Assembly: GCF_048403405.1 (NCBI RefSeq) | Contig: NZ_CP183129.1 | Length of the DNA: 64,000 nt | Direction: 5' to 3' (one strand) | From: Escherichia coli | GTDB taxonomy: Bacteria; Pseudomonadota; Gammaproteobacteria; Enterobacterales; Enterobacteriaceae | Part shown: one piece after another, positions 8,772-9,976 of the stretch | How the letters are laid out: each line of letters starts with the position of its first letter | Numbering within the stretch: the first letter of the stretch is position 1 | Notes under the pieces: generated by a model | What the model was told of the DNA's origin: nothing | Database searches by the model: none | What the model saw: the letters and a program-made list of their open reading frames with translations, nothing else | Program-made: the position numbers and the translations under genes

Positions 8772-9683
8772 ATGATCAAGAAGACAACGGAAATTGATGC
8801 CATCTTGTTAAATCTCAATAAGGCTATCGATGCCCACTACCAGTGGCTGGTAAGTATGTTTCACAGCGTGGTCGCGAGAGATGCCAGTAAGCCAGAAATA
8901 ACGGATAACCATTCTTATGGACTGTGCCAGTTTGGTCGGTGGATTGATCATCTGGGGCCACTCGATAACGATGAATTACCTTATGTTCGGCTAATGGATT
9001 CTGCCCATCAACATATGCATAACTGTGGTCGGGAATTAATGTTGGCTATTGTTGAAAATCACTGGCAGGACGCGCATTTCGACGCCTTTCAGGAAGGGTT
9101 GCTTTCTTTTACTGCGGCATTAACCGATTACAAAATTTATTTGCTGACGATCCGTAGCAATATGGATGTTTTGACGGGATTGCCGGGTCGTCGGGTTCTT
9201 GATGAATCCTTTGATCATCAGTTACGCAACGCTGAGCCTCTGAATCTTTATTTAATGTTGTTGGATATTGACCGATTTAAATTGGTTAATGATACCTACG
9301 GGCATTTAATCGGCGATGTAGTATTACGCACCCTGGCAACTTACTTAGCCAGTTGGACGCGCGATTACGAAACGGTTTATCGCTACGGTGGCGAAGAATT
9401 TATCATTATTGTCAAAGCGGCTAATGATGAAGAAGCATGTCGTGCAGGTATCAGAATTTGCCAGTTAGTCGATAACCATGCCATCACACATTCTGAAGGG
9501 CATATCAACATTACCGTGACAGCAGGTGTCAGTCGCGCATTTCCTGAAGAGCCTCTGGATGTGGTCATTGGAAGAGCAGACCGGGCAATGTATGAGGGTA
9601 AGCAAACCGGAAGAAATCGCTGCATGTTTATTGACGAACAAAATGTGATTAACCGAGTTTCAGCTCCGTTTAACATTCATTGA
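8772..9683 (+). CDS. dgcZ: Diguanylate cyclase DgcZ (YdeH), N-terminal zinc-sensing domain plus GGDEF
   Basis: GGEEF active-site motif (RYGGEEFIIIV) and N-terminal MIKKTTEIDAILLNLNKAIDAHYQWL matching DgcZ as recalled; start set at the third codon of the track ORF. Confidence 0.9.
   Translation: MIKKTTEIDAILLNLNKAIDAHYQWLVSMFHSVVARDASKPEITDNHSYGLCQFGRWIDHLGPLDNDELPYVRLMDSAHQHMHNCGRELMLAIVENHWQDAHFDAFQEGLLSFTAALTDYKIYLLTIRSNMDVLTGLPGRRVLDESFDHQLRNAEPLNLYLMLLDIDRFKLVNDTYGHLIGDVVLRTLATYLASWTRDYETVYRYGGEEFIIIVKAANDEEACRAGIRICQLVDNHAITHSEGHINITVTAGVSRAFPEEPLDVVIGRADRAMYEGKQTGRNRCMFIDEQNVINRVSAPFNIH
9656..9672 (+). promoter_or_regulatory. PhoP-box-like direct repeat (AGTTTC-N5-CGTTTA) overlapping the 3' end of dgcZ; candidate mgrR promoter element
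   Basis: Two hexamers resembling (T/G)GTTTA with 11-bp periodicity at 9656-9661 and 9667-9672, about 25-40 bp upstream of the proposed sRNA start. Confidence 0.35.
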
Positions 9684-9699
9684 GAAAACTGATGCTACT

Positions 9700-9805
9700 G
9701 TGTCAACGATCCGTTATCAGTGCAGGAAAATGCCTGTTAGCGTAAAAGCAAAACACAAATCTATCCATGCAAGCATTCACCGCCGGTTTACTGGCGGTTT
9801 TTTTT
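9700..9805 (+). ncRNA. mgrR: Candidate PhoP-regulated small RNA MgrR (5' end approximate), ending in an intrinsic terminator
   Basis: About 100-nt window between the dgcZ stop and mgtS, ending with a GC stem (ACCGCC...GGCGGT) followed by T8 at 9779-9805; convergent with mgtS. Orientation and ends are inferred, not aligned. Confidence 0.4.
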
Positions 9806-9813
9806 CGCCGTCA

Positions 9814-9853
9814 TAAAAATCAGGCCCCTTGTACACAACTGTAACAAGGGGCC
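9814..9853 (-). terminator. Intrinsic terminator of mgtS
   Basis: 10-bp perfect stem GGCCCCTTGT / ACAAGGGGCC (9823-9832 / 9844-9853) followed on the minus strand by a U-tract. Confidence 0.6.
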
Positions 9854-9880
9854 GGTTAGGTGAGGGATTATCTCCGTTCA

Positions 9881-9976
9881 TTAGTCATCCCATTTGTGGC
9901 TGAAATACGCGGCCAGAAAACCAGAAAATAAAATTATTCCCAGTACGGCCATAAAAACATTCATATTACCCAGCAT
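9881..9976 (-). CDS. mgtS: 31-aa small membrane protein MgtS (YneM)
   Basis: Minus-strand sORF translating exactly to MLGNMNVFMAVLGIILFSGFLAAYFSHKWDD with a GGAGGG Shine-Dalgarno upstream; not in the 60-aa-minimum ORF track. Confidence 0.9.
   Translation of the reverse strand: MLGNMNVFMAVLGIILFSGFLAAYFSHKWDD

What the first reader, a model, noticed from the sequence alone, without database searches (positions are those of the whole stretch)
9625..9976. Convergent mgrR sRNA candidate and mgtS small protein packed into about 300 bp, with a PhoP-box-like repeat inside the dgcZ 3' end
mgtS is read exactly on the minus strand. Upstream on the plus strand is an intrinsic terminator (stem plus T8 at 9779-9805) preceded by about 100 nt of non-coding sequence and a PhoP-like direct repeat at 9656-9672 that overlaps the last codons of dgcZ. 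This fits MgrR, but the orientation and ends are inferred from terminator geometry rather than from alignment.
Basis: partly seen in the sequence, partly recalled or inferred. Interest (0 to 1): 0.35.

Follow-up and report, generated by a model that had tools for sequence, protein, structure and literature searches.

The report
Known MgrR sRNA beside mgtS-mgtT

Summary
The finding is correct and already known. The annotated K-12 mgrR gene (b4698, 98 nt) aligns to window 9708-9805 on the + strand with 97 of 98 bases identical. Rfam RF01407 (STnc560, the Salmonella name) hits the same strand at 281.9 bits. mgtS (9881-9976, minus) is exact.

The terminator is at 9779-9805 as stated.

1. It missed mgtT (9777-9881, minus). 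This ORF overlaps the mgtS stop codon and runs antisense through the MgrR terminator.
2. Across about 76 Enterobacteriaceae species, the conserved repeat is CGTTTA (9667-9672) plus CATTGA (9678-9683), 12 nt before an extended -10. The upstream half-site (9656-9661) is not conserved.
3. This strain carries a minority allele (C at 9661; 149 of 5426 E. coli genomes). It turns the dgcZ stop codon TAA into TCA, adds 7 residues to DgcZ, and changes the upstream half-site from GTTTA to GTTTC.

PhoP dependence and Hfq binding rest on the literature and were not tested here.

The parts
8772..9683 (+). dgcZ (ydeH) coding sequence, 303-aa allele. The K-12 stop codon position (9660-9662) reads TCA here, so the ORF runs 7 codons further (SAPFNIH) to TGA at 9681-9683.
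   Evidence: ORF list. RefSeq annotation of an identical strain, 912 nt. The NCBIfam DgcZ equivalog covers residues 1-296 only. Alignment to K-12.
9656..9661 (+). PhoP half-site 1 (AGTTTC here, AGTTTA in K-12). It is not conserved outside Escherichia and contains the 9661 A/C polymorphism.
   Evidence: Information content 0.17 bit per position over 76 promoters.
9667..9672 (+). PhoP half-site 2 (CGTTTA). GTTTA is almost invariant across Enterobacteriaceae.
   Evidence: Information content 1.78 bit per position. This half-site was part of the anchoring pattern, so its conservation is partly by construction. 77 of 81 instances could be anchored.
9678..9683 (+). PhoP half-site 3 (CATTGA; family consensus yrTTkA). 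It lies 12 nt upstream of the -10 hexamer and contains the TGA stop of the extended dgcZ.
   Evidence: Information content 1.27 bit per position in columns that the anchoring pattern did not constrain. The geometry equals architecture I of Zwir et al. 2012, PMC3335776.
9693..9701 (+). Extended -10 element TGcTACTGT of the mgrR promoter (hexamer at 9696-9701).
   Evidence: Read from the sequence. TGnTAnnnT is present at a fixed distance from half-site 2 in 77 instances. It ends 6 nt before the annotated 5' end.
9708..9805 (+). MgrR small RNA, 98 nt. It comprises a 5' hairpin (9712-9742), an A-rich/ARN stretch (9744-9759), the seed U55-A68 (9762-9775), and a terminator stem (9779-9798) with a U8 tail (9798-9805).
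   Evidence: 97/98 identity to K-12 b4698. Rfam RF01407 at 281.9 bits. Fold. Terminator scan. Seed and length from PMC6239178.
9813..9853 (-). Strong hairpin (9823-9853) followed by UGAUUUUUAU on the mgtS strand. It is the probable main 3' end of the mgtS transcript and lies inside the mgtT ORF.
   Evidence: Fold of the minus strand. It is part of the Rfam model's second helix. The ~190-nt yneM transcript in Salmonella (PMC2515195) is of a compatible length. Its role as a terminator is inferred.
9777..9881 (-). mgtT, a 34-aa small ORF. Its ATG overlaps the mgtS stop (TAATG). Its last 29 nt are the reverse complement of the MgrR terminator and U-tail.
   Evidence: ORF list. RefSeq annotation in K-12 (b4775) and in the identical strain. 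DNA identical to K-12. Literature.
9881..9976 (-). mgtS (yneM), 31-aa inner-membrane protein gene. The Shine-Dalgarno sequence GGAGG is at 9983-9987.
10043..10077 (-). mgtS promoter: PhoP repeat AATTCA-N5-CGTTTA (10077-10061), a 12-nt spacer, then the -10 hexamer TAATAT (10048-10043).
   Evidence: Sequence. The same arrangement (rrTTmA-nnnTT-yGTTTA-N12-TAnnAT) was found in 34 of 42 species. PhoQP dependence of mgtS-mgtT from PMC11429745.

Best explanation
Window 9656-10077 is the known Escherichia coli mgrR / mgtS-mgtT locus. It consists of two convergent, PhoQ/PhoP-activated transcription units.

On the + strand, a promoter with in-phase PhoP half-sites and an extended -10 drives the 98-nt Hfq-dependent small RNA MgrR (9708-9805). 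MgrR ends at a Rho-independent terminator with a U8 tail. It uses its single-stranded seed (9762-9775) to repress mRNAs such as eptB, ygdQ and pitA.

On the minus strand, a second PhoP-box promoter (10077-10043) drives mgtS-mgtT. MgtS raises intracellular Mg2+ by acting on MgtA and PitA.

The two units end tail to tail, with terminators 16 nt apart. mgtT extends antisense into the MgrR terminator.

What was shown here: gene identities, strand, ends, promoter geometry and cross-species conservation. What is taken from the literature: PhoP dependence, Hfq binding and the targets.

My added inference concerns which half-sites matter. The PhoP site operating ancestrally is half-sites 2+3 (9667-9683), 12 nt from the -10, rather than half-sites 1+2 (9656-9672). 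The C at 9661 in this strain therefore probably has a modest effect on mgrR, while it lengthens DgcZ by 7 residues.
For: Identity and strand:
- The K-12 annotation places mgrR, mgtT, mgtS, ydeE and dgcZ in the same order and relative orientation.
- 371 bp align to K-12 with 3 differences, and mgrR itself is 97/98 identical.
- Rfam RF01407 scores 281.9 bits on the + strand against a gathering score of 55.
- MgtS matches its NCBIfam equivalog at 80.6 bits against a cut-off of 35.

Structure:
- The terminator and the 5' hairpin are predicted.
- Of 71 species' MgrR homologues, 69 keep a terminator stem of at least 6 bp with a 6-9 U tail, and 66 keep a 5' hairpin of at least 6 bp despite divergent sequence.

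Literature:
- MgrR is 98 nt, with seed U55-A68 and a U8 tail, and is PhoP/PhoQ-dependent (PMC6239178).
- mgtS-mgtT form a PhoQP-dependent operon with a stop/start overlap (PMC11429745; bioRxiv 10.1101/511675).
- In Salmonella, STnc560 is ~90 nt, 29-fold Hfq-enriched, lies in the ydeI/ydeE gap and is convergent with yneM (PMC2515195).
- The published PhoP box is at -52 to -36, and its evidence type is 'consensus motif identification' (PMC8313858).

Half-site inference:
- Half-sites 2 and 3 are conserved (1.78 and 1.27 bit per position) while half-site 1 is not (0.17).
- The 12-nt spacing to the -10 equals that of the neighbouring mgtS promoter and architecture I of the PhoP regulon (PMC3335776).
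Against: No experiment was run, so PhoP binding, the transcription start and the 3' ends in this strain are not measured.

In K-12, half-sites 1+2 match the consensus better (2 mismatches) than half-sites 2+3 (4 mismatches). Half-sites 1+2 also sit 23 nt from the -10, a spacing that works at rstA (architecture III). The published box could therefore be the operative one in Escherichia.

The species set was collected with an exact 21-nt seed pattern. It therefore samples only lineages with an unchanged seed. The promoter alignment was anchored on GTTTA plus an extended -10, so conservation of those two elements is partly by construction.

I could not read Moon and Gottesman 2009 directly.
Confidence: 0.95

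Rival explanations
1. The operative PhoP site is exactly the reader's and the published repeat (half-sites 1+2, 9656-9672), acting from 23 nt upstream of the -10 as at rstA. CATTGA is then only a -35-region sequence. On this reading, the C at 9661 would noticeably weaken MgrR induction in this strain.
For: In K-12, AGTTTA-N5-CGTTTA has 2 mismatches to the consensus against 4 for half-sites 2+3. The literature lists -52 to -36. A 21-23 nt spacing is a functional PhoP architecture (architecture III).
Against: Half-site 1 carries almost no information across 76 promoters (0.17 bit per position), and its last base varies A/C/T within Escherichia. Half-site 3 is conserved and sits at the canonical 12-nt distance. 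The published call is motif-based, not a footprint.
Confidence: 0.3
2. MgrR is not an independent gene here. It would be a processed 3'-UTR fragment of dgcZ read-through transcripts, because the dgcZ ORF ends only 25 nt before the RNA's 5' end and no terminator intervenes.
For: No terminator-like site lies between the dgcZ stop and 9779 on the + strand. dgcZ transcripts therefore probably do end at the MgrR terminator.
Against: A promoter (PhoP repeat plus extended -10) is conserved at a fixed distance from the RNA in species where the upstream gene is ydeI (Salmonella) or unrelated, and in Citrobacter, where dgcZ ends at least 50 nt further upstream. MgrR is reported as PhoP-dependent.
Confidence: 0.03
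3. The RNA is the full 214-nt span of the Rfam hit (9674-9887), reading through both hairpins.
For: The Rfam model matches end to end.
Against: The span starts inside the promoter (upstream of the -10). It crosses a strong terminator with U8 and ends inside mgtS on the wrong strand. The K-12 annotation is 98 nt. The Salmonella Northern band is ~90 nt, and the interval in that paper's table is the whole intergenic region. The model boundaries reflect how the family seed was cut, not RNA ends.
Confidence: 0.02

Closest known systems
MgrR of E. coli K-12 (b4698; Moon and Gottesman 2009)
   Same: Same locus, strand relation and length. 97 of 98 nt are identical, and the seed, A-rich stretch, terminator and U8 tail are identical.
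   Different: One base differs in the RNA (C at nt 4 here, U in K-12). C is the form seen in most other Enterobacteriaceae. One base differs in the promoter region (C at -47, A in K-12). That change also removes the dgcZ stop codon.
STnc560 of Salmonella (Rfam RF01407; Sittka et al. 2008)
   Same: An Hfq-bound ~90-nt RNA convergent with yneM/mgtS. The seed and terminator design are the same.
   Different: In Salmonella the upstream gene is ydeI, not dgcZ, and the mgtT ORF is not conserved there (only residues 1-20 align). The 214-nt Rfam model overshoots the RNA on both sides.
Architecture I PhoP-activated promoters (mgtA, phoP, slyB; Zwir et al. 2012)
   Same: A direct-orientation repeat ends 12 nt upstream of the -10 hexamer, at both mgrR (half-sites 2+3) and mgtS.
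   Different: One half-site of each box is degenerate (CATTGA, AATTCA). In Escherichia, mgrR also has a third in-phase half-site upstream, which gives an alternative 23-nt register (architecture III-like).
sRNAs with their own promoter in the 3' end of the upstream gene (MicL in cutC, DapZ in dapB; recalled from the literature, not tested here)
   Same: In this allele the PhoP repeat lies entirely within the dgcZ ORF, and MgrR shares its terminator with any dgcZ read-through transcript.
   Different: In most E. coli the dgcZ stop lies within half-site 1, so half-sites 2 and 3 and the -10 are intergenic. In other genera the promoter is intergenic. The overlap is incidental to Escherichia rather than a defining feature.

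Membership tests
MgrR / STnc560 sRNA (Rfam RF01407) | Covariance-model score above the curated gathering threshold, on the expected strand | tested here: met
   281.9 bits against 55, E = 1.8e-64, + strand, 9674-9887
MgrR / STnc560 sRNA (Rfam RF01407) | Alignment to the annotated K-12 mgrR gene over its full length | tested here: met
   97 of 98 identical at 9708-9805
MgrR / STnc560 sRNA (Rfam RF01407) | Synteny: convergent with mgtS, between dgcZ (or ydeI) and ydeE | tested here: met
   mgtS is convergent within 260 nt in 43 of 79 species loci. Salmonella orientation.
MgrR / STnc560 sRNA (Rfam RF01407) | Single-stranded seed U55-A68, an A-rich ARN stretch, and a Rho-independent terminator with a poly-U tail (Hfq class II design) | tested here: met
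   The sequence is identical to K-12 in these parts. In the fold the 14-nt seed (nt 55-68) is unpaired except for nt 61-63, which form a weak 3-bp helix with nt 41-43. Terminator. Design features from PMC6239178.
MgrR / STnc560 sRNA (Rfam RF01407) | Hfq binding and repression of eptB, ygdQ and pitA | not testable with these tools
   Literature only
PhoP-activated promoter | Direct repeat (T/G)GTTTA-N5-(T/G)GTTTA with at most 2 mismatches | tested here: not met
   Half-sites 1+2 have 3 mismatches in this strain (2 in K-12). Half-sites 2+3 and the mgtS box have 4. Such matches are at chance level in the window. Functional boxes with 3 mismatches are documented (PMC7667037).
PhoP-activated promoter | Direct-orientation box at an integral-turn distance (12 nt or 21-23 nt) from the -10 hexamer | tested here: met
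   Half-sites 2+3 end 12 nt, and half-sites 1+2 end 23 nt, before TACTGT. The mgtS box ends 12 nt before TAATAT. Architectures.
PhoP-activated promoter | PhoP~P binding and PhoP-dependent transcription | not testable with these tools
   Reported for mgrR and mgtS-mgtT in K-12. Not measured for this allele.
MgtS (YneM) small protein | Match to the NCBIfam equivalog NF033842 above its cut-off, over the full length | tested here: met
   80.6 bits against 35, residues 1-31 of 31
MgtT small protein (b4775) | A 34-codon ORF whose ATG overlaps the mgtS stop, identical to K-12 | tested here: met
   ORF at 9777-9881. DNA identical to K-12 across it. Annotated in RefSeq. No NCBIfam model exists.

The most novel reading that the evidence does not exclude
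The PhoP site that actually drives mgrR may be the phylogenetically conserved pair CGTTTA-N5-CATTGA (9667-9683, -41 to -25, 12 nt from the -10), not the listed box at -52 to -36. Escherichia would then have added a third, poorly constrained in-phase half-site that overlaps the dgcZ stop codon. One base (9661) would consequently set both the length of DgcZ (TAA stop, TCA Ser or TTA Leu) and the quality of that extra half-site. About 2.7% of E. coli genomes, including this one, would carry a 303-aa DgcZ together with a weakened upstream half-site.
Probability: 0.5. Interest if true: 0.25.

Novelty: already known. Interest (0 to 1): 0.1.

Why it matters
The locus itself adds nothing new. MgrR, MgtS and MgtT are characterised parts of the PhoQ/PhoP low-magnesium response.

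The practical value lies in annotation.
- RefSeq/PGAP records of most strains list mgtS, mgtT and dgcZ here but no mgrR feature.
- The Rfam family boundaries (214 nt) do not correspond to the 98-nt RNA.

The small new points matter only to specialists of PhoP promoters or of DgcZ. These are the register of the conserved PhoP repeat, and a natural single-base variant that couples a change in the dgcZ C-terminus to a change in the mgrR promoter region. Both can be tested cheaply.

Tried and rejected
[quoted passage not shown] 2013 and Yin et al. 2019 for the original promoter figure. None is held. The -52 to -36 position is therefore second-hand, from PMC8313858.
- **Consensus scanning for PhoP boxes.** It does not discriminate. 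Counts equal those of shuffled sequence. The best local 'hit' (9785-9801, 1 mismatch) is simply the MgrR terminator.
- **RNAalifold on a MAFFT alignment of 73 homologues.** It gave no useful consensus (-1.07 kcal/mol), because the 5' hairpin differs in length between genera. I replaced it with per-sequence folding. I made no formal covariation test.
- **A literature link between the names STnc560 and MgrR.** No paper in the library holds both terms. The equivalence rests on locus, strand and size.
- **Interpretations considered and rejected.** These were the 214-nt Rfam span as the transcript, a dgcZ 3'-UTR processing origin, and chance (see the rival explanations).

Full report
**What is in the sequence.** The region 9400-10200 contains the following, in order.
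- The 3' end of a GGDEF-protein ORF on the + strand, ending at 9683.
- An 8-bp G+C-rich stem at 9779-9798 followed by T8 up to 9805.
- A second strong hairpin at 9823-9853.
- Two short ORFs on the minus strand: 34 aa at 9777-9881 and 31 aa at 9881-9976.
- A 395-aa transporter ORF at 10103-11290, also on the minus strand.

The window is E. coli. A 401-bp query around the finding matched 5414 of 5426 complete E. coli genomes and was 100% identical to strain CFSAN061763. RefSeq annotates this stretch as dgcZ, mgtT, mgtS and ydeE.

- K-12 MG1655 carries the ncRNA mgrR (b4698) at 1622817-1622914 on the minus strand. It lies between mgtT/mgtS (+) and dgcZ (-).
- The reverse complement of that region aligns to window 9620-9990 with only three differences. 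The 98-nt mgrR falls on 9708-9805 of the + strand, with 97 of 98 bases identical.
- Independently, the only Rfam family to pass its gathering score anywhere in the 64-kb window is RF01407 (STnc560). It matches 9674-9887 on the + strand at 281.9 bits against a threshold of 55.
- STnc560 is the name given in Salmonella to an Hfq-enriched ~90-nt RNA in the ydeI/ydeE gap. That RNA is convergent with the yneM (= mgtS) transcript (PMC2515195).

The alternative it named, mgrR on the ydeE side of mgtS, is excluded.

**Anatomy of the RNA.** Folded alone, 9708-9805 gives four parts (-25.9 kcal/mol, z = -2.89).
- A 5' hairpin (nt 5-35).
- A largely open middle that contains the A-rich stretch.
- The seed U55-A68 (9762-9775).
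- The terminator (nt 72-91) with a U8 tail.

This matches the structure probing and the numbering in PMC6239178. That paper describes MgrR as a 98-nt class II Hfq-dependent sRNA that is induced through PhoP/PhoQ.

**Comparative data.** A scan of one genome per species with a 21-nt pattern from the seed returned 79 loci. All were Enterobacteriaceae, apart from a few evidently mislabelled MAG contigs. Of 71 homologues with complete 3' ends:
- 69 keep a terminator stem of at least 6 bp with 6-9 U;
- 66 keep a 5' hairpin of at least 6 bp, although its sequence differs between genera.

I did not run a formal covariation test. The RNAalifold attempt on a gap-rich alignment was uninformative.

**The PhoP repeat.** That is the position PMC8313858 lists for the PhoP site of mgrR, citing Moon and Gottesman 2009 with evidence type 'consensus motif identification'.

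As a motif match it is weak. It has 3 mismatches in this strain, and matches of that quality occur at chance frequency in the window (189 found, 170 +/- 14 expected).

I therefore looked at conservation. I anchored 77 promoter instances (76 distinct sequences) on GTTTA plus an extended -10. Three in-phase hexamers can then be compared.

| Half-site | Window coordinates | Sequence here | Information content |
|---|---|---|---|
| 1 | 9656-9661 | AGTTTC | 0.17 bit per position |
| 2 | 9667-9672 | CGTTTA | 1.78 bit per position |
| 3 | 9678-9683 | CATTGA (family consensus yrTTkA) | 1.27 bit per position |

The columns of half-site 3 were not constrained by the anchoring pattern.

Half-sites 2+3 end 12 nt before the -10 hexamer TACTGT (9696-9701, preceded by TG at 9693-9694). 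That is the 'architecture I' geometry of mgtA, phoP and slyB. Half-sites 1+2 end 23 nt before it, which is the 'architecture III' geometry of rstA (PMC3335776).

The neighbouring mgtS promoter has the 12-nt arrangement on the minus strand: AATTCA-N5-CGTTTA (10077-10061), 12 nt, TAATAT (10048-10043). This arrangement was found in 34 of 42 species.

My reading is that half-sites 2+3 are the ancestral operative site and half-site 1 is an Escherichia-specific addition. This is an inference. In K-12, half-sites 1+2 are the better consensus match, and I give the published register about 30%.

The 34-codon ORF at 9777-9881 is mgtT (b4775).
- It was identified by ribosome profiling and shown to be co-transcribed with mgtS in a PhoQP-dependent operon. 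Its start codon overlaps the mgtS stop. Here that overlap is TAATG at 9879-9883.
- Its last 29 nt are the reverse complement of the MgrR terminator and U-tail. The A8 run encodes Lys-Lys, the stem encodes PPVNRR, and the stop codon follows immediately.
- The hairpin at 9823-9853, followed by UGAUUUUUAU, lies inside mgtT. It looks like the main terminator of the mgtS transcript.
- Only transcripts that read through that hairpin can encode full-length MgtT, and those transcripts are antisense to the 3' end of MgrR.
- That would fit the lower MgtT level relative to MgtS reported, but it is inferred, not shown.
- Outside Escherichia the mgtT ORF is poorly conserved. tblastn found it in 27 of 80 loci, often only for residues 1-23.

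**A strain-specific detail.** Of the three differences from K-12, one is at 9661 (C here, A in K-12).
- In K-12 this base is the middle of the dgcZ stop codon TAA and also the last base of half-site 1 (GTTTA).
- Here the codon is TCA. dgcZ therefore continues for 7 codons (SAPFNIH) to the TGA inside half-site 3, giving 303 aa instead of 296. The DgcZ equivalog model covers residues 1-296 only.
- I used 55-nt queries centred on this base, so that every 28-nt megablast seed word must include it. The C allele is in 149 of 5426 complete E. coli genomes and the A allele in 5265, which together account for all 5414 genomes that have the locus.
- Another Escherichia lineage (L021) has TTA at the same codon. 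This position has therefore changed more than once.
- dgcZ lies upstream of mgrR only in Escherichia and Citrobacter. In Citrobacter it ends at least 50 nt before the repeat, and in Salmonella the upstream gene is ydeI. Overlap of the promoter with dgcZ is an Escherichia peculiarity.
- No terminator-like site lies between the dgcZ stop and 9779. dgcZ transcripts therefore probably end at the MgrR terminator.

**How it works.**
- Taken from the literature: low Mg2+ activates PhoQ, and PhoP~P then activates both promoters.
- MgrR, bound by Hfq through its A-rich stretch and U-tail, pairs through nt 55-68 with eptB, ygdQ and pitA mRNAs and represses them.
- MgtS, a 31-aa membrane protein, increases MgtA levels and, with MgrR, acts on PitA to raise intracellular Mg2+ (title of Yin et al. 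2019).
- Shown here: the identities, coordinates, strands, promoter geometry and conservation.
- Not shown here: PhoP binding, the transcript ends in this strain, and any effect of the 9661 allele.

**Verdict.** The feature is already known and interest is low. The residual novelty is the register of the conserved PhoP repeat and the minority allele that links the dgcZ stop codon to the mgrR upstream half-site. Both are minor and both are easily testable.

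Noticed in passing
window 56598-56614 (+): A perfect PhoP-box consensus (TGTTTAGTCGCTGTTTA, 0 mismatches). About 0.03 such matches are expected by chance in this window (my estimate). It is followed 11 nt later by CATAAT, which is the canonical PhoP-activated promoter geometry. It lies about 230-290 nt upstream of a fimbrial major-subunit ORF (56841-57452), annotated 'type 1 fimbrial major subunit FimA' in RefSeq hits. I know of no report of PhoP control of this fimbrial operon.
   Followed up: partly
window 57602-57618 (-): A second near-perfect PhoP box (TGTTTATTGATCGTTTA, 1 mismatch) on the opposite strand. 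It lies between the fimbrial subunit gene and the chaperone gene (57804-58523).
   Followed up: no
window 9661; L021: The middle base of the dgcZ stop codon is polymorphic. A (TAA stop) is in 5265 E. coli genomes and C (TCA) in 149. T (TTA) is in another Escherichia lineage, L021. The read-through forms end at the TGA inside CATTGA (9681-9683).
   Followed up: yes
window 9785-9801 (+): The best PhoP-consensus match near the finding (GGTTTACTGGCGGTTTT, 1 mismatch) is the MgrR terminator loop and 3' arm. It is a false positive that shows how unspecific the consensus is.
   Followed up: yes
window 9674-9887: The Rfam RF01407 model (214 positions) begins upstream of the -10 element. It also includes the opposite-strand mgtS hairpin and part of the mgtT and mgtS coding sequence. 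Its ends should not be taken as RNA ends.
   Followed up: yes
L019, L038, L043, L050, L057, L071, L072, L080 (Kluyvera and relatives): A diverged mgtS homologue (58-65% identity). In most of these loci it ends about 10 nt after the MgrR U-tail (about 30 nt in L043), with no room for mgtT or a separate hairpin. The MgrR terminator may serve both strands there.
   Followed up: no
Enterobacter, Lelliottia, Leclercia, Silvania loci (e.g. L005, L010, L028, L061): mgrR, with its PhoP-type promoter, is present, but no MgtS match (E <= 0.01) was found in the flanking DNA held. The convergent pairing is therefore not universal.
   Followed up: no
L023 1436-1456 and 3030-3050: One genome (Enterobacteriaceae bacterium RIT691) has two copies of the 21-nt MgrR seed pattern 1.6 kb apart. 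The second copy lacks the PhoP-type promoter.
   Followed up: no
L008, L075, L013: Contigs labelled as a Caldithrix MAG, as Chryseobacterium sp. and as 'Proteobacteria bacterium' carry enterobacterial mgrR loci. L008 also encodes E. coli-identical MgtS and MgtT and a 98%-identical YdeE. This is probably contamination or mis-binning in the public records.
   Followed up: no
window 10112-10128 (-): A terminator-like hairpin overlaps the last codons of ydeE (stop at 10103-10105). It sits directly upstream of the mgtS promoter.
   Followed up: no
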